Source: a virus
Taxonomy: Duplodnaviria > Caudoviricetes
IMG/VR virus record: IMGVR_UViG_3300026549_000034
Span: 129,182-193,181 of that record
Direction: 5' to 3' (one strand)
DNA: 64,000 bases
The position numbers were made by a program, and so were the translations under genes. Of this stretch, positions 1,049 to 63,642 are shown one piece after another; within the stretch, counting starts at the first letter, position 1; every line of letters starts with the position of its first letter. Below the pieces are notes generated by a model that did not search any database, had not been told where the DNA came from, and saw only the letters and a list, made by a program, of their open reading frames with translations.

Positions 1049-1252
1049 ATGAAAACATTAAAGGATAGAATATTTGAAGAACGACAAATAAAATATAATG
1101 TTGCATTTGTTGGATGTACAGATAGTGAAGGTATTCCAGTATCTTGTACAATTTTGGTTGATGCAAATAATCAAAAGGAAATTGAAAAATATTTTGAAAA
1201 TGAACAAGACAATACATTTGTTCATGTAGAGGGAGGAAATATTGAATATTAA
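1049..1252 (+). CDS. small protein with capsid-targeting-like leader
   Basis: N-terminus MKTLKDRIFE, Glu at position 10. Confidence 0.6.
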   Translation: MKTLKDRIFEERQIKYNVAFVGCTDSEGIPVSCTILVDANNQKEIEKYFENEQDNTFVHVEGGNIEY

Positions 1253-1380
1253 ATTGAATATTAATTAAGAAATATTAAAAATTGTTAATATATAATAATA
1301 TATAATAAGAAATCCCTAAATTTTTTTAATAAAGTTTAGGGATTAACTATTTTAAAAAGGATATTAAAAATATAGTTATT

Positions 1381-1857
1381 ATGGAAAAGGCAATAGGTAC
1401 CGTAACATTTAAAAAGTTTACTGGTGAAAAGCTACCAGACATTTCTGAATATATAAAGAATTATATTCAGGAAAATAAAAACATAGAAATTATAATTGGA
1501 ACAGATTCTCAAAACAAAGGACATAATACAACATATTCTACAGTTGTTGTATTGTATAATCCTGGACATGGTGGCCATTGTATATTTAAAAGATGGAAGA
1601 CACCTAAGGAAAGAGTTCGTCAAGTTCGTTTATTAAAAGAGGTTGAAGAATCAATTAATCTTGCAAATGAATTGATGGAGCATGGATGTCCTAAACCAAA
1701 ATATATAGATATTGATATTAACCCAAATCCTAAGTTTAAGTCAAATGAAGTATATCAAGCAGCTAAAGGGTGGGTTGAAGCAAGTGGATATGAAGTTAGA
1801 TTTAAGACAATTGCACCATTAGTAACATCTGTTGCGGATTGGTTGGTAAAATCATAA
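1381..1857 (+). CDS. RNase H-like YkuK/DUF458 family protein
   Basis: IIIGTDSQ, RLLKEVEES and IDIDIN motifs. Confidence 0.8.
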   Translation: MEKAIGTVTFKKFTGEKLPDISEYIKNYIQENKNIEIIIGTDSQNKGHNTTYSTVVVLYNPGHGGHCIFKRWKTPKERVRQVRLLKEVEESINLANELMEHGCPKPKYIDIDINPNPKFKSNEVYQAAKGWVEASGYEVRFKTIAPLVTSVADWLVKS

Positions 1858-1864
1858 TATTAAA

Positions 1865-1894
1865 AAATGGTAAGAACTTAAGTTCTTACCATTT
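1865..1894. terminator. perfect 30-bp palindrome, probable bidirectional terminator
   Basis: aaatggtaagaactt|aagttcttaccattt between convergent genes. Confidence 0.75.
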
Positions 1895-1918
1895 ATTGTT
1901 AAATTATATCTTCATTTA

Positions 1919-2617
1919 TCATTTTCCTTCAAAATACCATTTTGCTTCTGCTTTACGACGTGCAATCAATCCAGGATATTTTTTTCCTTGTATGTCTGAT
2001 AAATGTGACCAAGTATTTCTTATTTGTGGATTATTTGGGTTTGCTATAATCATTTTACATATTTGTTTATTTAAGAATCCCATTCCAAAATTATAACAGC
2101 CAGATGCTATTGCGTCTTTTTGATTTTGATTTAGCTTTACTTTATTAGTATTTGCCCATTTATCTATTTTTGTAGAAGTAATTTTTGCATGTTCTAAGAA
2201 AAGATTTTCAAGTTCTTTTTGTGTCCATCTTTTCTTTACAGAATCCATAAATTTACCGTTAGGATGATATAAAAGCCCATATCCAAAAGTCAAATGTCCA
2301 TTAGCATCTTTAAGATCATATCCATTTAGATCTTTATAAGTCATTGTATATCCAAATTTTTTGCCAGTTTCATATCTACAAATAAAGTCAATCATACCAT
2401 CGCTAATTCCTACATTATTTGTATTATTTGTTTTTTGTAATATGATTGCCCATGACTTAGGACCTATTACACCATCAGGAGTAAGACCTTTTGATTTCTG
2501 CCATTCCTTTACCTTTTTATCTGTGTTAGGACCAAAATCACCATCAGCTGTAATACCCAAATATTTTTGTAATACTTTTACATCTTCACCTTTGGATCCA
2601 AGTTTAATAGTGTTCAT
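1919..2617 (-). CDS. endolysin: peptidoglycan-binding domain plus GH24-like lysozyme
   Basis: LGSKGEDVKVLQ/DGDFGPNT/DGVIGPKSW PG-binding motifs; RYE..GHLTFGYG, NQNQKDAIAS.CYNFG, GLIARRKAE lysozyme motifs. Confidence 0.9.
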   Translation of the reverse strand: MNTIKLGSKGEDVKVLQKYLGITADGDFGPNTDKKVKEWQKSKGLTPDGVIGPKSWAIILQKTNNTNNVGISDGMIDFICRYETGKKFGYTMTYKDLNGYDLKDANGHLTFGYGLLYHPNGKFMDSVKKRWTQKELENLFLEHAKITSTKIDKWANTNKVKLNQNQKDAIASGCYNFGMGFLNKQICKMIIANPNNPQIRNTWSHLSDIQGKKYPGLIARRKAEAKWYFEGK

Positions 2618-2664
2618 AATTATTGTAAAGTATTTTAATTAAAAATATTAATTTTATGAGAAAC

Positions 2665-2694
2665 AAAAAGGAACATCATTAAAGATGTTCCTTT
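2665..2694 (-). terminator. intrinsic terminator hairpin
   Basis: aaaggaacatc-attaaa-gatgttccttt with A-run on the left, downstream of the RimK-like gene. Confidence 0.65.
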
Positions 2695-2719
2695 ATTGTA
2701 TAAAAAATAAAATATGTTA

Positions 2720-4429: not shown

Positions 4430-4455
4430 ATATTATATAAAAAATATTATAAATT

Positions 4456-5019
4456 TTAATATAAATTATCCATTATTGTTTTGGCATTGACATGGCCATC
4501 AGCCTTTTCATTATCTAATTTTTTGGAACTATATGGATCTATATGATCATTACCTTGTAGTATCTTATATAAAAAATATGCTGAATCATATATCTTATCG
4601 CCTGGATGTTTACATTTATTATCAAAGTTTGTTACCCATTCATCTTCATCTTGAATATTTATGTCTTTGTCATCCATTTTCAATATATTTTTCAATGCCC
4701 ACTTAACTACATCAACTTCGTCATTTGATGAATATAATATAATTTTATCAGGTGTAAAGTCTTCATATTCATCATTAAACATGGATATCATTTTAACCAT
4801 ATCAAAGAATGATGCAACATGAGGCAATTCATGATAATTATCTTTGTATACAAAATATTTTGCATCTGGTACTTCAAGCTCATTCCATGATCCATCCCAA
4901 TTATCTTCTTCATTTACAGGGAATTTTGGTATTTCTACAGATATCTTATTTCTATTTTGTTTTACGCTTATATTTTTTACGTTTAATTTTTCGACAATAT
5001 AGTTTGATAATTTTTTCAT
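4456..5019 (-). CDS. hypothetical protein with capsid-targeting-like leader
   Basis: starts MKKLSNYIVEKLNVKNI. Confidence 0.7.
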   Translation of the reverse strand: MKKLSNYIVEKLNVKNISVKQNRNKISVEIPKFPVNEEDNWDGSWNELEVPDAKYFVYKDNYHELPHVASFFDMVKMISMFNDEYEDFTPDKIILYSSNDEVDVVKWALKNILKMDDKDINIQDEDEWVTNFDNKCKHPGDKIYDSAYFLYKILQGNDHIDPYSSKKLDNEKADGHVNAKTIMDNLY

Positions 5020-14481: not shown

Positions 14482-15549
14482 ATGAAAATTTTTCAAATAT
14501 TATTAAATAAAACAAAAAATAGTTCATATAGATATGCTGAAGAATTATATCTATCATTATCATCTATAGAAGATATTGATATTGACCAAAGTATAATAGT
14601 TGATAAAAGTGAATTTAATCCAGATTTGATAGATATAATTAATTCTTATGATTACGTTTTTATTCATTCAATATCAAAAGATAAAGATTTATATAACATA
14701 TTAATAAATTTTATTAAACCTAAAAAGATATTATTTATTACTCATACTATATTAAAGCAATGGCATAATGATATTAATTTATCATATATTATTCCATTAT
14801 TGCGAAATGTAAGTAAAATAGTAATTAATCCACTTGCATTAGATATAATAAATGAAATTAAGGAAAAAATATCTGATGATCAGTTTAACAAAAAATATGT
14901 AGAACTTAAATATGTTTATAATTTTTATTTGTTTAATACAATAAATAAAGATAATATCATATCAATGATATCAAATAAGGGAGTACGAACTAATTATGAT
15001 TTATTCATTAATTTATTTAAAAACAAAGAAATATTAAATAGAGATTTTATTTGGAAATTATACGGTGTAACAAAGAACATTCAAACTTATTATATTAATG
15101 ATTTATATATAAACAATAAAACACAAAAACCTTCATTAATAACTAATTTTGATACAACAGTTATTTCAAAAAATATGATAAATGTATATGGAGAAATAGA
15201 CAGAAATACATATAAAGAAGTTATAGAAAAATCATTATTTACATGCAATTTTGATAATGAATCTTATATAAGTTATAATATAATAGATATAATAGGCAAT
15301 GGATCTATTCCAATAATGTCAAAAACTGTAGCGCAAAACATAAGAATAAATCAAAAACAAACATTATATGATCTTAAATGCGGTATATTTATTAATGATA
15401 CATTTGATGAACAAGCTATAATAACTATAAATAAATTAGTACAAAGTCCTAATACATACATAAATACATTAAATAAGCATGTAAATATTTTTAAACAAAT
15501 TTTCAATAATTCAGAAACAATCAATAAATTATTACAAAATATAATATGA
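14482..15549 (+). CDS. divergent GT-B glycosyltransferase, T4 alpha-glucosyltransferase-like
   Basis: YDYVFIHS..IKPKKILFITH and YNIIDIIGNGSIPIMSK resemble recalled AGT segments DILIINS..IKP..VVYQH and YTHLELGACGTIPVFWK. Confidence 0.55.
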   Translation: MKIFQILLNKTKNSSYRYAEELYLSLSSIEDIDIDQSIIVDKSEFNPDLIDIINSYDYVFIHSISKDKDLYNILINFIKPKKILFITHTILKQWHNDINLSYIIPLLRNVSKIVINPLALDIINEIKEKISDDQFNKKYVELKYVYNFYLFNTINKDNIISMISNKGVRTNYDLFINLFKNKEILNRDFIWKLYGVTKNIQTYYINDLYINNKTQKPSLITNFDTTVISKNMINVYGEIDRNTYKEVIEKSLFTCNFDNESYISYNIIDIIGNGSIPIMSKTVAQNIRINQKQTLYDLKCGIFINDTFDEQAIITINKLVQSPNTYINTLNKHVNIFKQIFNNSETINKLLQNII

Positions 15550-16250
15550 AAAACATAAATAATTACATATCAGAGAAGCTCAATATAAAAAATATTAAAG
15601 TACATCAATATAAGTATTTTCCAAAGACAAAAGAAGAACTTAGAAAAATCTTAGAAAAAAGATTAGATGAAGACAATAATGCGGATTTGAATGATATTGA
15701 TGTTAGTGAAATAACTGATATGTCATTACTATTTAATAAGTTAGATCCACATAATATAAATATATCTGGCTGGGATGTAGGTAATGTTACTGCAATGGGT
15801 GCAATGTTTAATGGATGTGATAATTTTAATTCTGACTTAAGTAAATGGGACGTTAGTAAGGTTACTAATATGGATTCAATGTTTGCTGATTGTGGAGAAT
15901 TTAATTCTGATCTAAGTGAATGGGATGTATCTAAAGTTACAAATATGCAAGCTATGTTTACTAGATGTCATAAACTTGATACCGACTTAAATAAATGGGA
16001 TGTATCTAATGTTACTGGAATGGATTCAATATTTTATGGTTGTAATAACTTTAATTCTGACTTAAGCAATTGGAATGTATCTAATGTTACTGATATGTAT
16101 AAAATGTTTTATGATTGTAACAGCTTTAATTCTGATCTAAGTAAATGGGATGTAAGTAATGTTACTGATATGCGTAATATGTTTTTTGGATGTGATTCGC
16201 TAAAAAATAAACCAAGCTGGTACAAGAATAAAATAAAAATTAAAAAATAA
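15546..16250 (+). CDS. DUF285/BspA-like repeat protein with leader
   Basis: 25-aa repeats WDVSNVTxMxxMFxxCxxFNSDLSK; leader MKNINNYISEKLNI. Confidence 0.9.
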   Translation: MKNINNYISEKLNIKNIKVHQYKYFPKTKEELRKILEKRLDEDNNADLNDIDVSEITDMSLLFNKLDPHNINISGWDVGNVTAMGAMFNGCDNFNSDLSKWDVSKVTNMDSMFADCGEFNSDLSEWDVSKVTNMQAMFTRCHKLDTDLNKWDVSNVTGMDSIFYGCNNFNSDLSNWNVSNVTDMYKMFYDCNSFNSDLSKWDVSNVTDMRNMFFGCDSLKNKPSWYKNKIKIKK

Positions 16251-16271: not shown

Positions 16272-16955
16272 ATGAAAAACCTAAAAGACGTCATTATAGA
16301 GAAGCTCAATATAAAAAATATTAAAATACAATATACTTGTCATCCAAAAACAAAAGTAGAACTTCAATTAATATTGAGAGAAAGACTATCAAAAGATAAT
16401 AATGCTAATTTGAATGATATTGATGTTAGTGATATAACCGATATGTCTAATTTATTTGAAAAATTAAATCCTCATAATATAGATATATCTGAATGGAATG
16501 TATCAAATGTTATCAATATGAGTTATATGTTTTATGATTGTCAAAATTTTAACTGTGACTTAAGTAAATGGGACGTAAGTAATGTTACAAATATGATAAA
16601 TATGTTTTATGATTGCAAAGAATTTAATTCTGACTTAAGCAAATGGAATGTAAGTAATGTTAAAAAAATGAATGGTACATTTGCTGGCTGTATAAAATTT
16701 AATTCTGATCTAAGCAATTGGGATGTTAGTAATGTTAATAATATGGGTGGACTATTTGCTAGATGCCAAAATTTTAATGCAGATCTAAGTAATTGGAATG
16801 TATCTAATGTTCAAAACATGGTAAATATGTTTTATGAATGTGAAAAATTTAAAGGCAAAGGATTAGAAAAATGGAAACCAACCAAATTATTAATATATAA
16901 GAATATATTTTATAAGACTCAATTAGAAAAAAATCCTCCAAAATGGTATAAATAA
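16272..16955 (+). CDS. DUF285/BspA-like repeat protein with leader
   Basis: same repeats; leader MKNLKDVIIEKLNI. Confidence 0.9.
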   Translation: MKNLKDVIIEKLNIKNIKIQYTCHPKTKVELQLILRERLSKDNNANLNDIDVSDITDMSNLFEKLNPHNIDISEWNVSNVINMSYMFYDCQNFNCDLSKWDVSNVTNMINMFYDCKEFNSDLSKWNVSNVKKMNGTFAGCIKFNSDLSNWDVSNVNNMGGLFARCQNFNADLSNWNVSNVQNMVNMFYECEKFKGKGLEKWKPTKLLIYKNIFYKTQLEKNPPKWYK

Positions 16956-19351: not shown

Positions 19352-20638
19352 TTAATCTTCGAATGGATCCTTATATCCTTCCTTCTTCCATTGTTCATCT
19401 TTAGTAAACTTATACTTAATATTATCAGTCTCTAATTTACGGAGATATCTTTCTACCATTTCTGCATTAAGATCACCTAATTCACAGAATGTCTTTACTA
19501 TATTTTCTTCTGAAATACCATATCTTACAACTTTACCATTTTCTTCTTGGGCAATAAATCCGTTCTCTATACCAAATTTAATTCCATCCTTTATTTGTTG
19601 TGTAAGCATATCTGAATCTTTTTTGTTTCCTGAACGACCAGTGGTATTTTCATCTTTCTTTTCAGCAGAATTCATAAAGTCATAGCAAGCTTCTGCTAAT
19701 TCATCAATTTCTTTTTCTTGTGTTCTAGAAAGATCATCTTTTACAAGACCTTGAATTTGTTCTTTCCAATCATCTGCATCAAATATATCATAGTCACCGT
19801 CTTCACGAAGGTTAAAGATAGATTCAATCATGAAACTTTCTACATCACGAGGATTTTTGAATATAGATGCGTGATCTTTAAATGTGTCTAATAATTCTTT
19901 AGATAATTTGTCATCCCATTTCTTATGTAAATGTGCAAAGGCAGCATCCCAATCGCCACTTTCCCAAGTAATGATACCGCCAAAACGAGAAAGCAGTGGT
20001 CCAGAAAGTTCATTAACTGCTCCATTTTCTGATTCAAAGTTACCAGCAGCACCAACAATAAAGTTTTCAAACTTATGACCGCATACTTCATTCTTAAGTA
20101 CAATAGGCATAAGAGCATTCATTACGTCAGGAGCAGCTTGGTTCATTTCATCAAAGAACAATAAGAATTGTGTTTCAGGATTGTCATACATAACTTTTGC
20201 CCAAGCTGGCATAAGTGTAGCTACATAATCAGCACCCTTCTTTGATTTCTTAGCAACTGGAAGACCACCTAAGTCAGTAGCTTCAGCTTTATCAAGATAT
20301 ACTGTTATAACTGTACGTTTGCATTGATGAGCAAGCTGTGTAATAATAGATGTCTTACCCCAACCAGCTTCACCTTGAATAAAGAATGGCTTCTTTGACT
20401 TAAGACGCATTAAGATTCTTTTCTTGTTACGGGTTAATGTATTTTTGTCAATACCGTTAACTATATCATCTTCTGTAGGAGGTTCAACAGCCCATACACC
20501 GCCTGAGCCATTTTCTTCTTCATCCTGTCCCTTTACATCTTTCAATTCAGGAGCTTCTTCTTTATCAGACTTTTTTGTACGATATTCATTAATGATACCT
20601 TCATTAATTTCATTTACAAATGTATTTAATGATTTCAT
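19352..20638 (-). CDS. MoxR-like AAA+ ATPase with capsid-targeting-like leader
   Basis: Walker A GEAGWGKT, Walker B LFFDEMN, AAGN sensor, LLSRF arginine finger; leader MKSLNTFVNE. Confidence 0.85.
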   Translation of the reverse strand: MKSLNTFVNEINEGIINEYRTKKSDKEEAPELKDVKGQDEEENGSGGVWAVEPPTEDDIVNGIDKNTLTRNKKRILMRLKSKKPFFIQGEAGWGKTSIITQLAHQCKRTVITVYLDKAEATDLGGLPVAKKSKKGADYVATLMPAWAKVMYDNPETQFLLFFDEMNQAAPDVMNALMPIVLKNEVCGHKFENFIVGAAGNFESENGAVNELSGPLLSRFGGIITWESGDWDAAFAHLHKKWDDKLSKELLDTFKDHASIFKNPRDVESFMIESIFNLREDGDYDIFDADDWKEQIQGLVKDDLSRTQEKEIDELAEACYDFMNSAEKKDENTTGRSGNKKDSDMLTQQIKDGIKFGIENGFIAQEENGKVVRYGISEENIVKTFCELGDLNAEMVERYLRKLETDNIKYKFTKDEQWKKEGYKDPFED

Positions 20639-29251: not shown

Positions 29252-30079
29252 ATGAAATCGCTTTCACAAATAATAAAAGAATCATTTAATAGTACTGACA
29301 TAAATGAATTTGATTCATATATTGTTGAGGGCTTAAATATTGATCCAATATCTAAAACGGTATCATTGACAGATACTCATAGTAATGGTGTTGACTTTTC
29401 ATTATTAAATAATCCGGTCTATTCAAAATATAAAGAATATGATGTTATATCAATATTTAAGAGAACTAAGTTATATGATATAGATAATCAGCAAAGAGAT
29501 GGAAATCCTTTTATATATGCATTAAAGAATAAATATGGATGGAAATTTAACATAACAAATGAAGAAATCTATAAGTACATTAAAAGATTTTTAACTATTT
29601 GTAAAAAAATAAATTCACAATATGATACTATTATTGTTACACCATCAACAAGTGATATTAATGAAAAATTCATGAAAGTCATTTCCAATCAAATAAAGTC
29701 TAAAGACATATTAAATGAATTTTTTGTTAAGTTATCTATTGAAGAAATTATTGATGATGATTTAATTGACAAAGAACAAATACAAAATGACTACCCAAAT
29801 GAATTCAATAAAGTAATTGCCGAAATTCACCATAGTTTTAGAAGAATGAAAGGGACATCATTTGAAGCAAAAATAATGAATAAAAAATATTTAAAATATA
29901 TAAAATACATAAGCACTGAGTATAATGAAGATATCAGATCAAAAATTGATAATAAAGATATATTGATTTTAGATGATACAATATCTTCAGGAGAAACAAT
30001 TAGTCAATGTATTAATGGAGTATTATCAAATTTTGTTCCGAAATCAATTACAATTATAATATTATTATCAAAATTATAA
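29252..30079 (+). CDS. phosphoribosyltransferase-fold protein with capsid-targeting-like leader
   Basis: PRPP-binding loop ILILDDTISSGET; ATG at 29252 gives MKSLSQIIKE. Confidence 0.75.
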   Translation: MKSLSQIIKESFNSTDINEFDSYIVEGLNIDPISKTVSLTDTHSNGVDFSLLNNPVYSKYKEYDVISIFKRTKLYDIDNQQRDGNPFIYALKNKYGWKFNITNEEIYKYIKRFLTICKKINSQYDTIIVTPSTSDINEKFMKVISNQIKSKDILNEFFVKLSIEEIIDDDLIDKEQIQNDYPNEFNKVIAEIHHSFRRMKGTSFEAKIMNKKYLKYIKYISTEYNEDIRSKIDNKDILILDDTISSGETISQCINGVLSNFVPKSITIIILLSKL

Positions 30080-34297: not shown

Positions 34298-35209
34298 TTA
34301 AGGTAATTTCTTTGGTTGTGGTTTTATAATTGAATCACAGTATACATTAGCAAGTATATCGTTATGTCTCCAATGGTATATGTTACCAACCGTTTTTAGT
34401 TTTTTACAGCCAACAAACATTCCTTTTGTGTTCATATCTTCTGTAATGTTCCAATTTGATAAGTCATCTACATATTTCAAATTGCTGCACCAAGAAAACA
34501 TAAATGACATATCTGTAACATCATTTATATCCCAAGTGTTTAATCCTTTTATTTCTTCTAGATATTTACAATCACTAAACAAACTACGTAATGATGTAAT
34601 ATTTTTAGTATTCCATCCAGTAATATCTATTTTTCGTGGTAATACTAATGCTAATTTATTGAATACATAACTTAATGAATCTAAATTAGAAACATCTATA
34701 TATGACAAATCTACAAAGTCTTTATTGTCTAAATAATCAATAGTTTTAAAAAGATATTTGACTAGATCTTCTTTTGATTTTGCTTTATATGTATATTTGT
34801 TTATTTTAATATCATTAATGTTAAGCTTCTCATTTAGACTATTTTTATCATAAATTATTTTACTATCATCATCAATAAATTTTATGCAAGATACATTTCT
34901 GTAAGTTGTATGCCGTATAGTTTTATCAAATATATTTGCTATATATGATTTCTTGTATGACATAAATAATGATCGTAGTCCATTTATTCCAAAATTAAAT
35001 ATAAGGTTATCATCTATATCATAAGTTGACCATTTTGAATCATCTTTTTGTATTTTGTATATATCTACATCAACATCGGTATTTCCACATATTTGTATTG
35101 TAAATGGTAGAACAACACCAGTATTATTAGAAAACCAATATATGTTATTTTGTAAATTTATTTTTTTGACATTTAATTTTTCAGTTATGTATGCATCAAT
35201 GTTCTTCAT
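34298..35209 (-). CDS. two-domain protein: leader, unknown domain, internal LNEKLNI, DUF285-like repeats
   Basis: [14 protein letters not shown]; internal SLNEKLNINDIK; WDINDVTDMSFMF. Confidence 0.8.
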   Translation of the reverse strand: MKNIDAYITEKLNVKKINLQNNIYWFSNNTGVVLPFTIQICGNTDVDVDIYKIQKDDSKWSTYDIDDNLIFNFGINGLRSLFMSYKKSYIANIFDKTIRHTTYRNVSCIKFIDDDSKIIYDKNSLNEKLNINDIKINKYTYKAKSKEDLVKYLFKTIDYLDNKDFVDLSYIDVSNLDSLSYVFNKLALVLPRKIDITGWNTKNITSLRSLFSDCKYLEEIKGLNTWDINDVTDMSFMFSWCSNLKYVDDLSNWNITEDMNTKGMFVGCKKLKTVGNIYHWRHNDILANVYCDSIIKPQPKKLP

Positions 35210-38853: not shown

Positions 38854-39249
38854 ATGATCAATTTAATAGATTACATATATGAAAAACTGGATGTAAACAA
38901 TATAGATCCTAACAAAATAAAAGAAAAAAATCTCGATAATCCTAAAGACTGGGATAAGGGTGACATACTTTGTGGTATATATGGATATAACATGTCATTA
39001 CCTGCATGGTATGAAATTATAAAGAAAACACCAAGTGGATTTACTGTAGTAGAACGTACGGGCAAAATTGTATCGGGCCATTACAATGGATCATGGGAAG
39101 AAATACCTGACAATACTAAACGTAATGAAGATCTAGCTGGTAAGAAAATTAGTTGTAGAATAAAGAAATATGGTGGTCTAAAAATAGGAAGTGTATGGGT
39201 ACATTTATGGGATGGAAAAACACCGTTAAGCTGTAATGATATGGACTAA
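38854..39249 (+). CDS. hypothetical protein with leader
   Basis: ATG at 38854 gives MINLIDYIYEKLDV. Confidence 0.7.
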   Translation: MINLIDYIYEKLDVNNIDPNKIKEKNLDNPKDWDKGDILCGIYGYNMSLPAWYEIIKKTPSGFTVVERTGKIVSGHYNGSWEEIPDNTKRNEDLAGKKISCRIKKYGGLKIGSVWVHLWDGKTPLSCNDMD

Positions 39250-39268: not shown

Positions 39269-39778
39269 ATGAAGAACTTAAATAACTATATATCAGAAAA
39301 ATTAAACATAGGCAAAGATTTTAAAATCCCTTATTATGTTGACGATTTGACTAATCAAGATATGGTTTTGTATTCAGATGTTGATGATGAACTTGATATT
39401 GATTGGAATGACTTTAAGGATGAATTAGATCAAATAGGTGATAAATATGATAGAACTGTTGGTGGATATTTTTTCTGTGCGAAACCTTTGTCTAAATATA
39501 ATGGACAAACATTACTTGAACACATAACATGCCTTGAATATATAGATGATGTAATATCGGAGATTTGTACAGGTAAAGACGCAGGATATGTAATAAAATT
39601 AGTTCATGGTCATATTGAAGTTTCTGCAATAAACAGTGGATCTAGATCAACATATTACGTATATGCAGTTGAACCAAAAATGTACGATAGACTATTAGCG
39701 TGGTATGAAGGTGATGATAGTATAGAATCATTAGATTTCATATTTAAAAAAGGAACTATTATACCTATTGAATTATAA
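39269..39778 (+). CDS. hypothetical protein with leader
   Basis: MKNLNNYISEKLNI. Confidence 0.75.
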   Translation: MKNLNNYISEKLNIGKDFKIPYYVDDLTNQDMVLYSDVDDELDIDWNDFKDELDQIGDKYDRTVGGYFFCAKPLSKYNGQTLLEHITCLEYIDDVISEICTGKDAGYVIKLVHGHIEVSAINSGSRSTYYVYAVEPKMYDRLLAWYEGDDSIESLDFIFKKGTIIPIEL

Positions 39779-49632: not shown

Positions 49633-50007
49633 ATGAAAAGTATTAATGACTTCATAAAAGAATCAAAGGGTAATGTAAAGCATGATGATTTGGGTGGTCG
49701 TGGTATGTTTTATACTTCAAATGGTGAATTAACATATTTTGAAGATTGCTATACTTATCCGGTTGATACAGATGATTGTATTGAAATTACTTTGCTTAGA
49801 ACAGATGTATCTAAACAAGGCACTGGAACAGATCTGTTGCAAGCTTTAATTGAGTATGCAAAATCTGTTAATAAGAAAATTGTAGTCTATGCAAGTCCTG
49901 TGGGTGATAAAATTTCTGAAAAGGATCTTATTGATTTTTATATGAAAAATGGATTTGTACAAGATGAAAGAACAGATGATAAGCATTGTTTAATTTATAA
50001 TGTTTAA
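49633..50007 (+). CDS. GNAT acetyltransferase with capsid-targeting-like leader
   Basis: KQGTGTDLLQALIEYA, LIDFYMKNGF; leader MKSINDFIKE. Confidence 0.8.
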   Translation: MKSINDFIKESKGNVKHDDLGGRGMFYTSNGELTYFEDCYTYPVDTDDCIEITLLRTDVSKQGTGTDLLQALIEYAKSVNKKIVVYASPVGDKISEKDLIDFYMKNGFVQDERTDDKHCLIYNV

Positions 50008-56435: not shown

Positions 56436-59400
56436 GTGAAATCTATTATTGAATTTATTAATGAAGATCGCCGCAAAAAGCAAGAACAAGAAATCCATAT
56501 AGAAGGTAATAGTATTCTTGATAAAATAATGAATGATAAAGAAACTAATATAGATGAGTTTGTTAAGGAATTTGTAAGACCTAATGGACCAACTATATAT
56601 GCATTTACCACAGATAAAGTTGATTCTGCAGTTAAAGTTGGATATACAGACCAACATCCTGAAGCTCGTATAGCACAATGGAAAGAGATATATGGTAAAG
56701 AAGAAGGTGAAGTTGTTACCTTAGGTTGGTGGAGTTCAGAAGAATTTAATCAAGCTGGTGAACGTGTATTTTTCTGGGATCATGCTATTCATAAGAAACT
56801 TAGAGATAAAGGATATAAACAACTAGAAAGAGATGAGTTTATGGCTACTTTAACAGAAAAGGGTAAGCAATTAGTTGATATTCATTATTCTCGTGAATTC
56901 TTTTCTAAATATAAGAAATTATTGCAAGGACAATTAAGTGATGAAGATAAAGAAGAATTGTCTGCACAATTACTTGAAGATCTTATTAAACAAATGAAAG
57001 CAAATATCCATGCTGGTACTGCCGATTTTAAGTTATATTCATTTGATGAAGAAGGTAAGACAAGTAAAAAACAAGCGGATAAGATATGGGGAGCTCCTGA
57101 TACATATCCTAATACTGATCTTCAAAAGGAAGCAATTAAAAACGGTGTCAAAGCTATTGATGAAGGTAAAAAGAACATATTGATGGCTGCTGTTATGAGA
57201 TTTGGTAAGACTCATGCTTCTTATGAAATTGTTAAACAAGCAGGATTAAAACGTGTTATAGTATGTTCTGCCAAAGCTGATGTTCGTACTGCTTGGAGAG
57301 AAGATATTAATCATGAGCATTTCTATAAAGATTTTGTATTCATCGAAGTTCTTGGTCCTAATAATTGTGATATGACTTATTGTAAAGGTGATAAACTTGT
57401 TACAGAACATGGTACACCTAATATAGAGAATCTTGAAAAGGCTGGTAAGACAATTATATATTTCTTTACTTTACATGATTTAGGTGGTTCTGTTAAGGAA
57501 TTAAAAGAAAAGCATAAAGGCATATTTGATAAAGAATTTGATATGATGATTGTTGATGAAACACACTATGGGTCTCATGCAAATACTTTTGGACAAGCAA
57601 CAGGATTAGGCAAAAATAAGATTAAAGATGGCGAAGATGATGAAGATAATGCAGCAATTGAAGAAGAACAAAAAATTGCACAAGAATCCGCTGAAACATT
57701 AAAGAAGCTAAATATAAAATATAAACGAGTTCTTCAAGTTTCTGGAACACCTTATTACATATTAGCATCAAATGAAATGATTGCCGAAGATGCTGAAATT
57801 ATATCTAAAGTTTCTTATACTGATATGTTGAATGCTCGTGATAAATATGAAAAGGAACATAAAGGAGAAGATCCAAGCACTTCACCTTATTTCGGTATAC
57901 CTACTTTACATAAGATTGGATTAAGATTAAATAAAGAATGCCGTAAAGTAATGCAAAATGCTGGTGTGACTGATTCTATGACTGAATTATTCAAAGTTGA
58001 TGGACAGAAGTTTGTACATGAAAAGGCTGTAGAGGGATTAATGAAAAGTATATTTGGTGATGGTAAAGGTTCGTTAGCATTCTTGAAAAACAAATCAGTA
58101 GAAGGAAATAAAGTTTGCAAACATACTTTGATAGTTCTTCCTCGTGTTAAGGCATGTAGAGTTATGAAAGACTTGTTGACTAAATTCATATCAGAAAAAA
58201 ATCGTAAAGTATTCTGTATTGTCAATAATTGGGGAGGCACCGCTGATGTTAAAGATGTAGATGACTTAAATAACCAATTAGAAACACTTGATAGCAAAGG
58301 TATAGGAAGTATTATATTGACAGTAAACAGATTCTTGACGGGTGTTTCTATGCCTTGTGTAGATAGTATGATATATCTTAAGAATGCAAGTAGCCCACAA
58401 GAATATGACCAAAATATATTCAGACTTTGTACAAGAAGGGTTAAGAAAGTCAAAGATCCAGATGATGAAAGTAGAAGCAAGAAGGTAAATATGAAAGATA
58501 ATGTTTACTTGATAGACTTTAACATGACAAATATGTTTAATATGATTGCTAATTCTGCTCGTATGAAAGCTGCTGCAGAAGGTAATCCAACAACTGAACG
58601 TATCAAAGAACTTATGGAAGATGATGTGAAAGCTGTACCAATATTTGCAGAAGACAAAGCAAGTTCTGAAATACTTGGTAAGATGCACAAGATTGATTCC
58701 AAAGATATGATGATACTATATTCAAATTATAATAAGAACAAGAGTATTGCGGATATAGTAAGTGATGAAATTGACCTGTTTGATAATTTATTTGTTGATG
58801 ATACATTCCAAAAGATCATAGCAGGAATTGATATAGAAGGTGACAATAGTAAGATTAATTTGGGAAATGGCTCAGAAGAAGGTGAAGAATTAGATAATTT
58901 ACCAAGTGGAAGCGAAGTACCAAGTAGTAAAGATGACAAGAAAATGAAATCATTACTAGATAAACTTAAGGAAGCTAACATAACTAAAAATGAAAAGAAA
59001 CAGCTTGAAGATTTGACTAAGAAGAAATTCAAAGCTATTACCAAGAACTTATTATATTGTGACTTATGCTTAGATGAACCTTGCGTAGATATAGACGGTA
59101 TATTAAAGAAAGCTAAAGAGGATAAAGACTTTAAGAAAATGCTACATGAATTCAAAATTAATGAGAAAGATATAGAAAAAGTTTATAATGCTATGTCTAC
59201 TAATTTTAAACAAGCATATAATTCATTATTGACTCGTATGGCTTTACTTGCACAAGATACATCAAAGAGCGGTTATGATAAATTCAGTAAAGCATTAGAA
59301 GGACTTGGAAGACTTGGTAAAAATGAAGTAGTGACACCTCCCGAAATTGTTGAAAAAATGATTAATAAACTTTCAAAAGAAGACTATGATAAAGCAGAAA

Positions 59401-60533
59401 GCATATTAATTGTTAATGAGAAACAAGCAGAATTCACAATGGGCTTAATAAATAAATTTGGAAAGAAAATTGCTAAGAAAATTAAGATAGTTGCAAGTAG
59501 TGAAGTTGGTAAACACTTAAGTAGGAAAATGTTAAAAAGTTCACTTGGAAAAAACTATATTAAATCAATAATATTAAATATAGGTGACGTAGATGGCAAT
59601 GGCTATTACGATGTCAATGATTTTTTGAAGATGGATAATAAAGAAATTTTAAAAGAGAATAATAATAAACGTTTTGATATTTTACTTTCTAACCCACCGT
59701 ATGCAAGAAATTTACATATGAAATTTTTAGAAAAATATGTTGATTTGGCCGATAAAATAATAAGTATACAACCATTATCTTGGTTACAAAATATATTTAG
59801 TGATCAAAATAAAAATTCTAAAATAAATAAAATTCCACTTACAGATGTAGAGTATGTTGGAAATATTAAAAATGCATTTAAATATGATTCTCCGGGTCAC
59901 GCAACTTATGATACTGGCATTTATGTAATAGATAATAATGCAAAAACAAATAATGAAGAATTATTGTATAAATTTATTGATTTATATCCTGGAGAACGTA
60001 TTGATCCTAAACTTATAAAATCAATTAAATATAAAATATTAAATTATTGTAAAGAACATAATTTAGAAGATAATATAAAATATGGAAATGTTGATGAAAA
60101 TACAAAATATACAATAATTATGCCTACTTTATTAGGAAATGCTGGTTGTAAAAATGATAGATATTTTTGGAAAACTTCAAAACGATGGGGTAGAATATTT
60201 TATAAAGGAAAATCTGAAGGGAAATTTATGGGAGAATATAAAAAGAAATTATCTAATGTTAAAAATTATACTAATTTCCCTTATTTAGAGTTTAATACTG
60301 AAGATGAATGTAAAAATTGGATTGATTCACAAGATTCAGATATTATGAGATTTATTTCAATTCTTAATTACGTCGATTCGAATCGACGCTGTAAATTTGT
60401 CCCTTATATGGAAGATTATAGTAAAGTATGGACAGATGATATGTTAGCTAAATTTTTTAATATAACGAAAGATGAAAGAGAACAGATTCATCATTATATA
60501 ACTTTATTTGATAAAAAATTTAATAAAAAATGA
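56436..60533 (+). CDS. GIY-YIG-like nuclease, SF2 helicase and N6-adenine-MTase/TRD multidomain protein (Type ISP/IIG-like) with leader
   Basis: TIYAF..VKVGYT..EARIAQW; AVMRFGKT; IVDETH; SGTP; QNIFRLCT; NEVVTP; FDILLSNPPY; GTG start MKSIIEFINE. Confidence 0.8.
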   Translation: MKSIIEFINEDRRKKQEQEIHIEGNSILDKIMNDKETNIDEFVKEFVRPNGPTIYAFTTDKVDSAVKVGYTDQHPEARIAQWKEIYGKEEGEVVTLGWWSSEEFNQAGERVFFWDHAIHKKLRDKGYKQLERDEFMATLTEKGKQLVDIHYSREFFSKYKKLLQGQLSDEDKEELSAQLLEDLIKQMKANIHAGTADFKLYSFDEEGKTSKKQADKIWGAPDTYPNTDLQKEAIKNGVKAIDEGKKNILMAAVMRFGKTHASYEIVKQAGLKRVIVCSAKADVRTAWREDINHEHFYKDFVFIEVLGPNNCDMTYCKGDKLVTEHGTPNIENLEKAGKTIIYFFTLHDLGGSVKELKEKHKGIFDKEFDMMIVDETHYGSHANTFGQATGLGKNKIKDGEDDEDNAAIEEEQKIAQESAETLKKLNIKYKRVLQVSGTPYYILASNEMIAEDAEIISKVSYTDMLNARDKYEKEHKGEDPSTSPYFGIPTLHKIGLRLNKECRKVMQNAGVTDSMTELFKVDGQKFVHEKAVEGLMKSIFGDGKGSLAFLKNKSVEGNKVCKHTLIVLPRVKACRVMKDLLTKFISEKNRKVFCIVNNWGGTADVKDVDDLNNQLETLDSKGIGSIILTVNRFLTGVSMPCVDSMIYLKNASSPQEYDQNIFRLCTRRVKKVKDPDDESRSKKVNMKDNVYLIDFNMTNMFNMIANSARMKAAAEGNPTTERIKELMEDDVKAVPIFAEDKASSEILGKMHKIDSKDMMILYSNYNKNKSIADIVSDEIDLFDNLFVDDTFQKIIAGIDIEGDNSKINLGNGSEEGEELDNLPSGSEVPSSKDDKKMKSLLDKLKEANITKNEKKQLEDLTKKKFKAITKNLLYCDLCLDEPCVDIDGILKKAKEDKDFKKMLHEFKINEKDIEKVYNAMSTNFKQAYNSLLTRMALLAQDTSKSGYDKFSKALEGLGRLGKNEVVTPPEIVEKMINKLSKEDYDKAESILIVNEKQAEFTMGLINKFGKKIAKKIKIVASSEVGKHLSRKMLKSSLGKNYIKSIILNIGDVDGNGYYDVNDFLKMDNKEILKENNNKRFDILLSNPPYARNLHMKFLEKYVDLADKIISIQPLSWLQNIFSDQNKNSKINKIPLTDVEYVGNIKNAFKYDSPGHATYDTGIYVIDNNAKTNNEELLYKFIDLYPGERIDPKLIKSIKYKILNYCKEHNLEDNIKYGNVDENTKYTIIMPTLLGNAGCKNDRYFWKTSKRWGRIFYKGKSEGKFMGEYKKKLSNVKNYTNFPYLEFNTEDECKNWIDSQDSDIMRFISILNYVDSNRRCKFVPYMEDYSKVWTDDMLAKFFNITKDEREQIHHYITLFDKKFNKK

Positions 60534-60731: not shown

Positions 60732-61025
60732 ATGAATATACTTAAATCAAAATATATTTATAATAAATTAAGACAGGATTATTTGTGTAAAAATCCCATA
60801 TTAATATTGTATAATGATGGTCATTCAGAAGGATATGATAAATATTATACATATGAAGAATTTAAACAATTTAAAAATTCAGAAATCATTAATCTATTTA
60901 AACAAAAATATTTTTATGATACAAATTTATTTAGTTTGTGGAGAAAAGCTAAAAATCATAAATGGACAATTGCCGGATTTATTATATCAATTATATTAGC
61001 AATATACTATGGTAATAAAATATGA
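60732..61025 (+). CDS. hypothetical protein with C-terminal TM segment
   Basis: WTIAGFIISIILAIYYG. Confidence 0.55.
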   Translation: MNILKSKYIYNKLRQDYLCKNPILILYNDGHSEGYDKYYTYEEFKQFKNSEIINLFKQKYFYDTNLFSLWRKAKNHKWTIAGFIISIILAIYYGNKI

Positions 61026-61522: not shown

Positions 61523-61544
61523 AATTTAAGTAATTTATCTAAAT

Positions 61545-61573
61545 AAAAAAAGGAAGCATCGAGGCTTCCTTTT
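61545..61573. terminator. bidirectional terminator
   Basis: aaaaggaagc-atcgag-gcttcctttt between convergent genes. Confidence 0.8.
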
Positions 61574-61577
61574 GTAG

Positions 61578-62036
61578 TTATTTATTTTCATACCATTTTG
61601 GCTTATCTATAGACTTACAATCAAAGAACATATCATACATTTCTTCAACATTAGATACATCCCATTTATTTAAGTCAGTATCAAGTTTATGACATCCAGT
61701 AAACATTGCTTGCATATTTGTAACTTTAGATACGTCCAATTCACTTAGATTACAATTGAAGTTTTCACAAAAGAAGAACATAAATGATGTATTAGTAACA
61801 TTGCTTACGTCCCATTTAGATATGTTTATGTCATGAGGATCTAACTTAGCAAATAGATGATTCATGTCGGTTATTTCGCTAACATTAATATCGTTTAAGT
61901 CAGCATTCTTATTTTCTTTTAAACGTTCCTCCAATATCTGTTTAAGTTCATCTTTTGTTTTTGGACAACAGCTATATTGACGTTTGATATCTTTTAAGTT
62001 AAGCTTCTCAAATATGTAGTTATGTAAATCTTTCAT
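61578..62036 (-). CDS. DUF285/BspA-like repeat protein with leader
   Basis: MKDLHNYIFEKLNL; WDVSNV repeats. Confidence 0.9.
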   Translation of the reverse strand: MKDLHNYIFEKLNLKDIKRQYSCCPKTKDELKQILEERLKENKNADLNDINVSEITDMNHLFAKLDPHDINISKWDVSNVTNTSFMFFFCENFNCNLSELDVSKVTNMQAMFTGCHKLDTDLNKWDVSNVEEMYDMFFDCKSIDKPKWYENK

Positions 62037-62038
62037 AT

Positions 62039-62572
62039 TTATTCTTTATACCACTTTGGCTTATTTTTTAATGAATCACATCTAAAGAACATGTTATGCA
62101 TATCAGTAACCTTACTAACATCCCATTTATTTAGATCGGAATTAAAATTTTTACATTCCCAAAACATAGCTCTCATATCGGCAACATTACTAACATCCCA
62201 TTTGCTTAGATCTGCATTAAAGTTCACGCAAACAGAAAACGTATACTGCATACTAGTAACCTTACTAACATTCCATTTACTTAGATCAGAATTAAAGTTA
62301 TCGCAACTAAAAAACATGCCATTCATATTAGTAACATTACTAACGTCCCATCCGGAGATATCTATGTTATGAGGATCTAACTTAGAAAATAGATTAGACA
62401 TATCGGTTATTTTACTAACACCAATATCATTTAGATCAGCATCCTTATTTTCTTTTAAACGTTTTTCCAATATATCTCTAAGTTCATCTCTTGTCTTAGG
62501 GAAATAATTATATTGACTTTTTATATCTTTTATATTAAGCTTCTCAAATATGTAGTTATTTAGGTTCTTCAT
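62039..62572 (-). CDS. DUF285/BspA-like repeat protein with leader
   Basis: MKNLNNYIFEKLNI; repeats. Confidence 0.9.
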   Translation of the reverse strand: MKNLNNYIFEKLNIKDIKSQYNYFPKTRDELRDILEKRLKENKDADLNDIGVSKITDMSNLFSKLDPHNIDISGWDVSNVTNMNGMFFSCDNFNSDLSKWNVSKVTSMQYTFSVCVNFNADLSKWDVSNVADMRAMFWECKNFNSDLNKWDVSKVTDMHNMFFRCDSLKNKPKWYKE

Positions 62573-62575
62573 TTT

Positions 62576-63109
62576 TTATTCTTTGTACCAGCTTGGCTTA
62601 TTTTTTAATGAATTGCACTCCCAAAACATATCATGCATATCAGTAACATTGCCTACGTCCCAACTATTTAAATCACTATCAAATTTTTTACAGCCATCAA
62701 ACATTTTATACATATCAGTAACCTTACTAACATTCCATTTGCTTAAATCAGAATTAAATTTTTCGCAAAGTAGAAACATGCGATTCATATTAGTAACATT
62801 AGATACGTCCCATTTGTTTAGATTACAAGCAAAGTTTACACATGAAGCAAACATAAATTTCATATCTTTAACAGCGCTTACATTCCATTCAGATATATCT
62901 ATGTCATGAGGATCTAAATCAACAAATAAGAAAGACATATCAGTTATTTTACTAACATCTATATCATTTAGATCAGCATCCTTATTTTCTTTTAAACGTT
63001 TTTCCAATATACTTTTAAGTTCATCTCTTGTCTTTGGACAACAGCTATATTGATGTTTAATATCTTTTATGTTAAGCTTCTCAAATATGTAGTTATATAA
63101 ATCTTTCAT
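62576..63109 (-). CDS. DUF285/BspA-like repeat protein with leader
   Basis: MKDLYNYIFEKLNI; repeats. Confidence 0.9.
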   Translation of the reverse strand: MKDLYNYIFEKLNIKDIKHQYSCCPKTRDELKSILEKRLKENKDADLNDIDVSKITDMSFLFVDLDPHDIDISEWNVSAVKDMKFMFASCVNFACNLNKWDVSNVTNMNRMFLLCEKFNSDLSKWNVSKVTDMYKMFDGCKKFDSDLNSWDVGNVTDMHDMFWECNSLKNKPSWYKE

Positions 63110-63111
63110 AT

Positions 63112-63642
63112 TTATTCTTTATACCAACTTGGTTTATTTTTTAGTGAATTGCATCTATAAAATATTCTATTCATATCATTAATATTACTAACATTCCAAT
63201 TGTTTAGATCACTATTAAATTTTTTACAATATGCAAACATATTATACATATCCTTAACATTACTTACATCCCATTTACTTAGATCAGAATTAAAATTTGT
63301 ACAACCAGCAAACATTTTATACATATCTTTAACCTTACTAACATTCCATTTACTTAGATCAGATGTAAAATTCTCACAATATATAAACATACAGTTCATA
63401 TTAGTAACATTGCTTACGTCCCATCCAGATATATCTATGTCGTGTGGATCTAATTCATAAAACAGATGATCCATATCTTTTATTTCGCTAACATCAATAT
63501 CATTTAGGTTAGCACTCTCATTTTCACTTAGACGTTCTTTTAATATTTGTATAAGTTCTTTTTTTGTCTTAGGAAAATATACATAATCTTTGATATTTCT
63601 TACATTAAGCTTCTCAAATATGTAGTTATGTAAATCTTTCAT
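63112..63642 (-). CDS. DUF285/BspA-like repeat protein with leader
   Basis: ATG at 63642 gives MKDLHNYIFEKLNV. Confidence 0.9.
   Translation of the reverse strand: MKDLHNYIFEKLNVRNIKDYVYFPKTKKELIQILKERLSENESANLNDIDVSEIKDMDHLFYELDPHDIDISGWDVSNVTNMNCMFIYCENFTSDLSKWNVSKVKDMYKMFAGCTNFNSDLSKWDVSNVKDMYNMFAYCKKFNSDLNNWNVSNINDMNRIFYRCNSLKNKPSWYKE

What the first reader, a model, noticed from the sequence alone, without database searches (positions are those of the whole stretch)
1049..63642. A shared 10-residue N-terminal leader on 17 unrelated proteins: a putative capsid-targeting system for injected effectors
Seen in sequence: 17 ORFs start with M-(K/I)-x-(L/I)-x-x-(Y/F/I/V/R)-(I/V)-x-E, with Glu at exactly position 10. 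They are 1049 MKTLKDRIFE, 5019c MKKLSNYIVE, 15546 MKNINNYISE, 16272 MKNLKDVIIE, 20638c MKSLNTFVNE, 29252 MKSLSQIIKE, 33572c MKNLKDIIIE, 34267c MKDLNAYVNE, 35209c [10 protein letters not shown], 38854 MINLIDYIYE, 39269 MKNLNNYISE, 49633 MKSINDFIKE, 56436 MKSIIEFINE, 62036c MKDLHNYIFE, 62572c MKNLNNYIFE, 63109c MKDLYNYIFE and 63642c MKDLHNYIFE. Twelve continue KL(N/D)(I/V/L). The cargoes are unrelated: repeat solenoids, MoxR ATPase, PRTase, GNAT, nuclease-helicase-MTase and unknowns. The core enzymes (RecA, topoisomerase, RtcB, NadE, SmpB) lack the leader. Established knowledge: T4 internal proteins IPII/IPIII carry the 10-aa capsid-targeting sequence MKTYQEFIAE, which the prohead protease gp21 removes after (I/L)-x-E; they are ejected into the host, and IPI is an anti-restriction factor. 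Inference: this phage uses a portable tag to load a large, diverse set of effectors into the head for delivery at infection.
Basis: partly seen in the sequence, partly recalled or inferred. Interest (0 to 1): 0.92.

Follow-up and report, generated by a model that had tools for sequence, protein, structure and literature searches.

The report
Capsid-loading tag on many phage proteins
An uncultured giant T4-like phage from cattle rumen starts about one in six of its proteins with a ten-residue tag like the one phage T4 uses to load proteins into its head. This suggests an unusually large protein cargo delivered with the DNA, but neither packaging nor cutting has been measured.

Summary
All 17 N-termini are as described. 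A weight matrix built from the leaders hits 38 places among 197,156 stop-free ten-residue windows of the 193-kb contig: 37 at an ATG and one at the GTG of the 1365-aa gene, none elsewhere.

Across the contig, 46 of 274 ORFs carry the leader, on 33 BLAST-unrelated bodies. In the window, however, 8 of the 17 are paralogues of one DUF285 repeat family.

The conserved positions (2, 4, 7, 8, 10) include the four that mutagenesis showed to matter in the T4 capsid-targeting sequence: 4 and 7 for targeting, 8 and 10 for cutting.

The contig is about 68% complete and holds no head protease or major capsid gene. Two near-complete relatives have a gp21-type protease next to a gp23-type capsid gene, with the catalytic His and Ser kept, and one of them has 38 such leaders.

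The cultured relative PAU has about 20 proteins with a similar nine-residue leader. Its depositors annotated two of them as internal capsid proteins and one as scaffolding.

My verdict is a T4-type capsid-targeting propeptide, greatly expanded and partly carrying a second, genome-specific segment. Packaging, cutting and injection remain untested.

This scan had already noted the same leader elsewhere in this genome and in other uncultured T4-like phages.

The parts
1049..1252 (+). 67-aa leader protein, class A (leader only), body unannotated
   Evidence: TATTTTTAAT motif 31 nt upstream
4456..5019 (-). 187-aa leader protein, class A+B (leader followed by KLNV...), body unannotated
15546..16250 (+). 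234-aa DUF285 repeat protein with A+B leader
   Evidence: Pfam PF03382 E=1e-71; paralogue cluster
16272..16955 (+). 227-aa DUF285 paralogue with A+B leader
19352..20638 (-). 428-aa AAA_5 (MoxR/GvpN-like) ATPase with class A leader; the ATPase domain starts near residue 70-85
29252..30079 (+). 275-aa class A leader protein with a second, degenerate leader-like stretch at residues 22-30; weak PRTase-like C-terminus, below family cut-offs
33105..33572 (-). 155-aa A+B leader protein, body unannotated
33578..34267 (-). 229-aa DUF285 paralogue with A+B leader
34298..35209 (-). 303-aa DUF285 paralogue with A+B leader
   Evidence: Pfam PF03382 E=5e-16
38854..39249 (+). 131-aa A+B leader protein (KLDV variant); the true start is probably this internal ATG
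39269..39778 (+). 169-aa A+B leader protein, body unannotated
49633..50007 (+). 124-aa class A leader protein; weak GNAT-like match below cut-offs
56436..60533 (+). 1365-aa class A leader protein starting at GTG; SF2 helicase (ResIII, GKT and DETH motifs) and an NPPY motif at residue 1086
   Evidence: PWM 17.4 bits, the only non-ATG hit in the contig; Pfam ResIII E=2e-8; motifs
61578..62036 (-). 152-aa DUF285 paralogue with A+B leader
62039..62572 (-). 177-aa DUF285 paralogue with A+B leader; modelled
   Evidence: AF2 mean pLDDT 89.9; residues 1-20 at pLDDT 55-58, helix 4-12, confident fold from about residue 21
62576..63109 (-). 177-aa DUF285 paralogue with A+B leader
63112..63642 (-). 176-aa DUF285 paralogue with A+B leader
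63648..63998 (-). DUF285 paralogue running into the contig end, so its N-terminus cannot be judged

Best explanation
The ten residues M-K-x-(L/I)-x-x-(Y/F)-(I/V)-x-E are a capsid-targeting propeptide of the T4 type. The proposed mechanism has four steps:
1. During prohead assembly the leader docks the tagged protein onto the scaffolding core. Positions 4 and 7 would carry the targeting.
2. The gp21-type serine protease of the prohead cuts after Glu10, at an (I/V)-x-E site, and frees the body inside the shell.
3. DNA is packaged around the freed proteins.
4. At infection the proteins leave the head with the DNA.

This phage lineage has expanded the system to at least 46 proteins on this contig, about 17% of its ORFs, and 17 of them lie in the window. 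The cargo includes a diversified DUF285 repeat family and enzymes up to 1365 residues long. About half of the leaders carry a second segment (KLN-I/V-KNIK here) that differs from phage to phage.

Shown here:
- The motif, and that it occurs only at protein starts.
- That conservation ends at Glu10.
- That the bodies behind it are diverse.
- That relatives with the same leader hold the protease and capsid genes.

Inferred: docking, cutting, packaging, ejection and any anti-host function.
For: 1. The motif is exclusive to protein starts: 38 of 197,156 windows, all at start codons. The expected count is 0.03 against 35-37 seen.

2. In the 18 leaders without the second segment, information content is high at positions 1, 2, 4, 7, 8 and 10 and falls to about zero from position 12. 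In T4 IPIII, amber-suppressor work mapped targeting to residues 4 and 7 and processing to residues 8 and 10 (PMC9026906, read). T4 gp21 cuts after Glu in I/L-x-E (PMC12991175).

3. The matrix trained here, run over all 1429 ATG starts of T4, ranks gp61.1, IPIII and IPII among its four best.

4. Forty-six leader proteins form 33 BLAST-unrelated clusters.

5. The leader is an add-on in front of complete domains. The NDK domain starts at residue 19 and the HAD domain at residue 22. The AF2 model of a DUF285 cargo has a detached low-confidence helix at residues 4-12 and a confident fold from about residue 21.

6. Synonymous codons vary at the conserved residues (K2 AAA 26, AAG 10; E10 GAA 26, GAG 11; Y7 TAT 17, TAC 10), so selection acts on the peptide.

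7. The two near-complete relatives have Peptidase_S77 next to a Gp23 capsid gene: G005 (376 kb, 98% complete, 38 leaders) and G003 (223 kb, terminal repeats, 3 leaders). In three further related contigs, 4 to 7 leader genes lie within 10 kb of the protease gene. His85 and Ser140 of T4 gp21 are invariant in all six relatives aligned.

8. Cultured phage PAU has 19 proteins starting MK(T/S)(L/I)xx(L/M)(Y/F)E, plus one with Glu at position 10. Its depositors annotated gp142 and gp154 as 'internal capsid protein' and gp152 as 'scaffolding'.

9. The mature PAU capsid protein has 520 residues by N-terminal sequencing (PMC5646251). Within one residue, that fits a cut after L-M-E64.

10. Leader proteins turn over fast. 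Seven of 46 have a G005 orthologue against 94 of 228 other proteins (p = 7e-4). The T-even internal-protein loci behave the same way.
Against: - No protease, capsid or portal gene lies on this contig, so the link rests on relatives that share about 50-60% identity in conserved proteins.
- No virion proteomics exists for this lineage.
- The cargo does not look like the classic small basic internal proteins. Median pI is 5.8, the same as the other proteins.
- The cargo includes housekeeping-type enzymes (NDK, HAD phosphatase), whose delivery with the DNA has no obvious use.
- A 1365-aa protein would have to pass through the tail.
- No shared late-promoter signal could be proved. The TATTTTTAAT motif is only weakly enriched.
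- The second segment of the leader has no counterpart in T4 and is unexplained.
- The PAU annotations are the depositors' notes, and I could not find the data behind them.
Confidence: 0.7

Rival explanations
1. The tagged proteins are loaded into the head and trimmed as proposed, but most are not effectors. They would serve inside the particle, for example as core, inner-body or DNA-organising proteins or as assembly factors, and are degraded or stay behind.
For: In PAU the same kind of leader sits on the annotated scaffolding protein and on genes inside the head module. The protease itself starts with a conserved (L/I)-(I/V)-x-E, and Glu9 of T4 gp21 is invariant. A 65-aa leader protein copies part of the capsid protein's N-arm.
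Against: There are thirty-three unrelated bodies, including ATPase, helicase, NDK, HAD and a variable repeat family. Turnover between relatives is fast, which is unlike structural parts. pI is not basic, so a charge-neutralising role is unlikely.
Confidence: 0.12
2. The leader is an address or docking helix for something other than the capsid, such as a replication or nucleotide-synthesis complex or another phage-made compartment. Alternatively it is a handle for timed destruction by the protease in the cytoplasm.
For: Several bodies are metabolic enzymes (NDK, HAD, PRTase-like). The leader models as a free helix on a flexible linker.
Against: The conserved positions coincide with the T4 targeting and cutting positions. 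PAU proteins with the related leader are annotated as capsid-internal. Leader genes cluster next to protease and capsid genes in relatives. The replication enzymes themselves lack the leader.
Confidence: 0.08
3. The shared start has no protein-level function. It would be a DNA- or mRNA-level feature: a translation-initiation optimum in a host without Shine-Dalgarno sites, or a recombination site left by cassette shuffling.
For: No Shine-Dalgarno sequences are seen upstream and the codons are AT-rich. Doubled or truncated leaders (29252; contig 60448 and 120242) and phage-specific second segments point to recombination at the leader.
Against: Synonymous codons vary while the residues stay fixed. 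C-ending and G-ending codons are actually over-used at Y7 and E10. Glu at exactly codon 10 and an aromatic at codon 7 have no rationale for initiation. Relatives keep the peptide pattern at different nucleotide sequences. Recombination at the leader fits the tag model and is also proposed for T-even phages.
Confidence: 0.05
4. The leader is a recognition sequence for a modifying enzyme, as in RiPP systems.
For: Only the general precedent (earlier finding e1-127136).
Against: No Radical_SAM domain is found on the contig, while all 14 control genomes ring. The motif matches the protease rule instead.
Confidence: 0.02

Closest known systems
Capsid-targeting sequence of phage T4 internal proteins IPI, IPII, IPIII (and Alt), removed by the gp21 prohead protease
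   Same: Both are ten-residue N-terminal peptides starting MK, with an aromatic at position 7, an aliphatic at 8 and Glu at 10. Both sit on proteins with nothing else in common and occur in a T4-superfamily phage with a gp21-type protease. In both, the cargo genes are variable and clustered (PMC3012670, PMC9026906, PMC12373910).
   Different: T4 has three such proteins, and about ten are reported across the T-even phages. Here at least 46 lie on two thirds of one genome. Position 4 is L/I here, not Tyr. The cargo is not small and basic and includes enzymes up to 1365 residues and a 12-member repeat family. Half of the leaders carry a second, phage-specific segment. The likely host is a rumen Bacteroidota member, not an enterobacterium.
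Leader MK(T/S)(L/I)xx(L/M)(Y/F)E on about 20 proteins of cultured Sphingomonas phage PAU, including the annotated internal capsid proteins gp142 and gp154 and the scaffolding protein gp152
   Same: PAU gave the strongest match among cultured phages to this phage's baseplate protein. It has the same MK-x-(L/I) start, a hydrophobic-x-E or hydrophobic-E end and often a KLN continuation. It sits on many unrelated small proteins in and around the head module.
   Different: In PAU the Glu is at position 9 and Leu-Tyr/Phe takes the place of Tyr/Phe-Ile-x. I did not find this leader described in the papers I could search. The annotations are depositors' notes.
Propeptides of head and ejection proteins of phiKZ-like giant phages (phiKZ, SPN3US), cut by a gp21-related protease
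   Same: Dozens of head proteins, many of them ejected, are trimmed by a related protease after Glu (PMC5694885, PMC10052503; abstracts).
   Different: From my own knowledge, those sites are (S/A/G)-x-E and the propeptides are long and dissimilar to one another. Here the P3 residue is I or V in all strict leaders, and one short uniform tag is used.
N-terminal decapeptide of T4 gp24 and the N-terminus of gp21 (L-I-E9)
   Same: Structural head proteins of T4 also start with a short peptide ending in hydrophobic-x-E. The protease of this lineage starts with a conserved L-I-Y-E10.
   Different: Those are single essential head proteins, not a portable tag on accessory cargo.

Membership tests
T4-type capsid-targeting sequence / internal-protein system | Short peptide of about 10 residues found only at the extreme N-terminus | tested here: met
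   All 38 matrix hits of 12 bits or more lie at start codons, among 197,156 windows.
T4-type capsid-targeting sequence / internal-protein system | Function-critical residues at positions 4 and 7 (targeting) and 8 and 10 (processing), ending in (I/L)-x-E | tested here: met
   Information peaks at positions 2, 4, 7, 8 and 10 and drops to zero after position 11. The T4 mapping is from PMC9026906. Position 8 is I or V in 37 of 37 leaders and position 10 is E in 37 of 37.
T4-type capsid-targeting sequence / internal-protein system | The same tag on proteins that share nothing else | tested here: met
   Thirty-three BLAST-unrelated clusters among 46 proteins. Pfam finds DUF285, AAA_5, ResIII, HAD and NDK.
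T4-type capsid-targeting sequence / internal-protein system | Genome encodes a gp21-type (Peptidase_S77) prohead protease with its catalytic His and Ser | tested here: inconclusive
   Absent from this contig, which is 68% complete. Present in both near-complete relatives and in PTm1 and PAU. His85 and Ser140 are invariant.
T4-type capsid-targeting sequence / internal-protein system | T4-type head (gp23-family capsid protein) built on a scaffolding core | tested here: inconclusive
   PF07068 is absent from this contig. It lies next to the protease gene in G003 and G005. The gp6-like baseplate wedge is present here.
T4-type capsid-targeting sequence / internal-protein system | Tagged proteins present in virions with the new N-terminus at residue 11, and ejected at infection | not testable with these tools
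   There is no cultured member and no proteome. The indirect evidence is the depositors' annotations of PAU gp142, gp152 and gp154.
T4-type capsid-targeting sequence / internal-protein system | Cargo is small and basic (typical of IPII and IPIII, not strictly defining) | tested here: not met
   Median pI is 5.8, equal to the other proteins. Median length is 160 residues and the maximum is 1365.
phiKZ / SPN3US-type head propeptides | Cut sites with a small residue at P3, (S/A/G)-x-E, after long and dissimilar propeptides | tested here: not met
   P3 is I or V in all strict leaders, and the tag is a uniform ten residues. The rule for phiKZ-like phages is from my own knowledge.
RiPP-like recognition leader served by a radical-SAM enzyme | A radical-SAM/SPASM enzyme gene linked to the tagged genes | tested here: not met
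   No PF04055 match on the contig, while all 14 controls ring. The contig is incomplete.

The most novel reading that the evidence does not exclude
The leader is a two-part address code. Part A (ten residues, cut after Glu10) admits a protein to the prohead. Part B, which is specific to each phage and stays on the mature protein, sets a second property such as copy number, position in the head or order of exit. With this code one phage would ship sixty or more different proteins, among them a diversifying library of DUF285 repeat binders and large nucleic-acid enzymes. That would make its injected proteome an order of magnitude richer than any described.
Probability: 0.2. Interest if true: 0.85.

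Novelty: new variant of a known kind. Interest (0 to 1): 0.6.

Why it matters
If the tag works as in T4, the proteins a phage brings into the cell can be read straight from sequence, even for uncultured phages. In this rumen lineage that list would be about ten times longer than in any studied phage.

The list is a ready catalogue of candidate first-minute counter-defence and take-over proteins, most without any known fold. The short portable tag could also serve to load foreign proteins into large capsids.

The phage-specific second segment, and the small protein that copies the capsid protein's N-arm, are new handles on how cargo and scaffold recognise each other.

PAU is cultured and carries about 20 proteins with a similar leader, so the central claim can be tested at the bench now.

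Tried and rejected
- PHROGs gave nothing for ten giant ORFs outside the window, and Pfam, PHROGs and NCBIfam gave nothing for most cargo bodies.
- A PDB sequence search of the 1365-aa protein found no match.
- The ESM Atlas look-up of the 187-aa cargo rested on a model with pTM 0.22 and gave only TM scores below 0.5, so I did not use it.
- k-mer enrichment upstream of leader genes found no clean shared promoter. T4's late box TATAAATA occurs in front of 6 of 46 leader genes against 9 of 227 others, and TATTTTTAAT is shared with many non-leader genes. I therefore leave expression timing open.
- My first guess for the capsid-protein cut site, the conserved I-x-E at the aligned position (I-K-E49 in PAU), does not fit the published mature length of the PAU protein. 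L-M-E64 fits within one residue. The site in the rumen lineage is therefore unknown.
- Homology between the 65-aa leader protein and T4 gp61.1 is limited to the leader.
- A search of the large protein collection with residues 1-45 of a DUF285 cargo found only ten close metagenomic relatives.
I re-ran it from references.
- Read laying was not used, because contigs of metatranscriptome runs cannot show timing.

Full report
**Observation**

I called ORFs on the whole 193,181-base contig in which the window lies. It is an IMG/VR virus record of 26.7% G+C that CheckV estimates at 68% complete.

Two thousand shuffles of residues 2-30 never gave more than 2. A weight matrix of residues 2-10 reaches 12 bits at only 38 of 197,156 stop-free windows in six frames. 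Thirty-seven are ATG starts. The thirty-eighth is the GTG at 56436, which was not used for training. The motif is therefore real and confined to protein starts, and the GTG start of the 1365-aa gene is very probably correct.

With looser variants, 46 ORFs carry the leader. Seventeen of about 105 window ORFs do.

**Anatomy of the leader**

There are two classes.
- In 18 strict leaders, conservation sits at positions 1, 2, 4, 7, 8 and 10, is weak at 11, and is nil from 12 on.
- In 19 others, the Glu is followed by KLN-(I/V)-KNIK, conserved to about residue 18.

Synonymous codons vary at the fixed residues, so the peptide is under selection, not the DNA.

An AlphaFold2 model of the DUF285 cargo at 62039-62572c has a mean pLDDT of 89.9. 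Residues 1-20 score only 55-58, with a helix at 4-12 and then a linker, and the confident fold begins near residue 21. In the NDK and HAD cargoes the Pfam domain starts at residues 19 and 22. The leader is thus an add-on in front of complete domains.

**Cargo**

After removing the first 20 residues, the 46 proteins fall into 33 BLAST-unrelated clusters. One cluster of 12 is a DUF285 repeat family and takes 8 of the 17 window cases.

The statistically supported identities are:
- DUF285
- an AAA_5 ATPase
- a ResIII helicase domain in the 1365-aa protein, which also has GKT, DETH and NPPY motifs
- HAD
- NDK.

The PRTase and GNAT calls fall below family thresholds. The rest has no annotation. The mature cargo is not basic: median pI is 5.8, as for the other proteins. 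Topoisomerase II, RtcB, RecA, SmpB and NAD synthase lack the leader.

**Comparison with T4**

Reviews of the T4 head state that the internal proteins share only a ten-residue capsid-targeting sequence. In IPIII, residues 4 and 7 govern targeting and residues 8 and 10 govern processing. gp21 cuts after Glu in I/L-x-E (PMC3012670, PMC9026906, PMC12991175). Those four positions are among the ones conserved here.

The matrix trained on this phage, run over all 1429 ATG starts of T4, puts gp61.1, IPIII and IPII among its top four. T4 gp24 has a similar decapeptide.

**Protease and head genes**

Peptidase_S77 and Gp23 are not on this contig. The baseplate-wedge protein places the phage with Sphingomonas phage PAU, the Tenacibaculum jumbo phages, the Lak megaphages and the T4-like cyanophages.

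Five related IMG/VR contigs were found. The two that are near-complete have an S77 protease next to a Gp23-family capsid gene: G005 (376 kb, 98% complete) and G003 (223 kb, terminal repeats). The three fragments, like this contig, have neither gene. This contig has no orthologue of the G005 region that holds protease, capsid, sheath and tube. The missing third of the genome is therefore the likely home of those genes.

Counts of matrix hits of 8 bits or more:

| Genome | Size searched | Hits |
|---|---|---|
| G005 | 376 kb | 38 |
| G002 | 158 kb | 25 |
| G001 | first 80 kb | 9 |
| G004 | 148 kb | 5 |
| G003 | 223 kb | 3 |

In three further contigs found through the protease, 4 to 7 leader genes lie within 10 kb of it. 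His85 and Ser140 of T4 gp21, the pair mutated in the published dead enzyme, are invariant in the six relatives aligned. So is Glu9 of the N-terminal L-I-E.

**The cultured relative**

PAU has 19 ORFs that start MK(T/S)(L/I)xx(L/M)(Y/F)E, and one more with the Glu at position 10. Many lie in its head module and several continue with KLN. Its GenBank record annotates two of them (gp142, gp154) as internal capsid protein and one (gp152) as scaffolding.

The mature PAU capsid protein has 520 of 585 residues by N-terminal sequencing (PMC5646251). A cut after L-M-E64 would leave 521, which agrees with an L-x-E rule in this clade. I found no paper that describes the PAU leader.

**Other features**

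- Leader genes are strongly strand-biased. They make up 33 of 86 minus-strand genes against 13 of 188 plus-strand genes (p = 6e-10).
- Few have orthologues in G005: 7 of 46 against 94 of 228 other proteins. That is the behaviour of accessory, fast-changing genes.
- The second leader segment differs between phages but is uniform within each, even on unrelated bodies. This points to spread by recombination, or to co-evolution with a phage-specific partner.
- The DNA is found in bovine and sheep gut metagenomes from more than ten studies.

**Rival readings**

- A DNA-level or translation-level signal does not fit the codon data or the fixed Glu10.
- A non-capsid address cannot be excluded, but nothing specific supports it.
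- It remains open whether the packaged proteins are effectors or internal parts. The diversity and turnover of the bodies favour effectors for most of them.

**Standing**

The kind of system is known from T-even phages. New here are its scale, its cargo types, the second leader segment and the lineage. Earlier notes of this scan reached the same reading for other stretches of this genome and for other uncultured T4-like phages. I re-derived it independently and added the PAU link.

Noticed in passing
contig 41028-41225 (-), outside the window (locus L013:3029-3226): A 65-aa leader protein whose body copies two segments of the lineage's major capsid protein N-arm (short-query BLASTP against the G005 capsid protein, E=6e-12). 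T4 has the same arrangement: gp61.1 (54 aa) aligns without gaps to gp23 residues 57-93 at 46% identity (E=6e-9), with its Glu10 on Glu65 of gp23, which I recall, without checking here, to be gp23's maturation cut. This looks like a conserved 'leader plus capsid N-arm mimic' mini-protein of unknown role.
   Followed up: partly
window leaders at 4456-5019c, 15546, 16272, 33105-35209c, 38854, 39269, 61578-63642c; relatives G001, G002, G003: The segment after Glu10 is uniform within a phage but differs between phages: KLN(I/V)KNIK here, KLQIGSNTKLG in G002, KL(V/I)(I/L)GKNIIH in G001 and RLKITS.. in G003. It sits on unrelated bodies. Some DUF285 genes of G003 start directly at this segment, without part A.
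   Followed up: partly
window 29252-30079 (+); contig 60448-61290 (-) and 120242-120652 (-): Doubled or truncated leaders. These are a second leader-like stretch at residues 22-30 of the 29252 protein, a tandem repeat of seven leader residues at 60448, and a shortened part A at 120242. They look like recombination footprints at the leader.
   Followed up: no
whole contig, e.g. window 1018, 5059c, 15486, 20688c, 49598: TATTTTTAAT lies 25-60 nt upstream of giant ORFs, two endolysin-like genes and the first genes of leader arrays. In G005 it lies upstream of the 2830-aa gene that opens the head module. It is a candidate phage promoter class, and its timing is unknown.
   Followed up: partly
whole contig: Leader genes make up 38% of minus-strand genes and 7% of plus-strand genes (p = 6e-10).
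   Followed up: partly
window 35209-36255 (-), 41046-41477 (+), 45106-46005 (+), 27873-29204 (+): The phage encodes a bacterial-type RecA (Pfam 410 bits), SmpB (191 bits), NAD synthase and RtcB. None carries the leader.
   Followed up: partly
window 2720-4429 (-): A 569-aa protein with a RimK-like ATP-grasp domain (E=1.5e-24) lies next to a leader gene. Its function in a phage is unclear.
   Followed up: no
relatives G005 212552-214165, G003 214501-216414, PTm1 217778-219547: In these phages the S77 protease domain is the N-terminal third of a 537-637-aa protein with a long acidic or coiled C-terminal extension. PAU's protease is only 246 aa. This may be a protease-scaffold fusion.
   Followed up: no
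T4 record NC_000866, 18966-19130 (-): T4 gp61.1, a hypothetical protein, starts with a capsid-targeting-like decapeptide and is the best T4 hit of the matrix built here. Whether it is packaged seems not to be recorded in the papers I read.
   Followed up: partly
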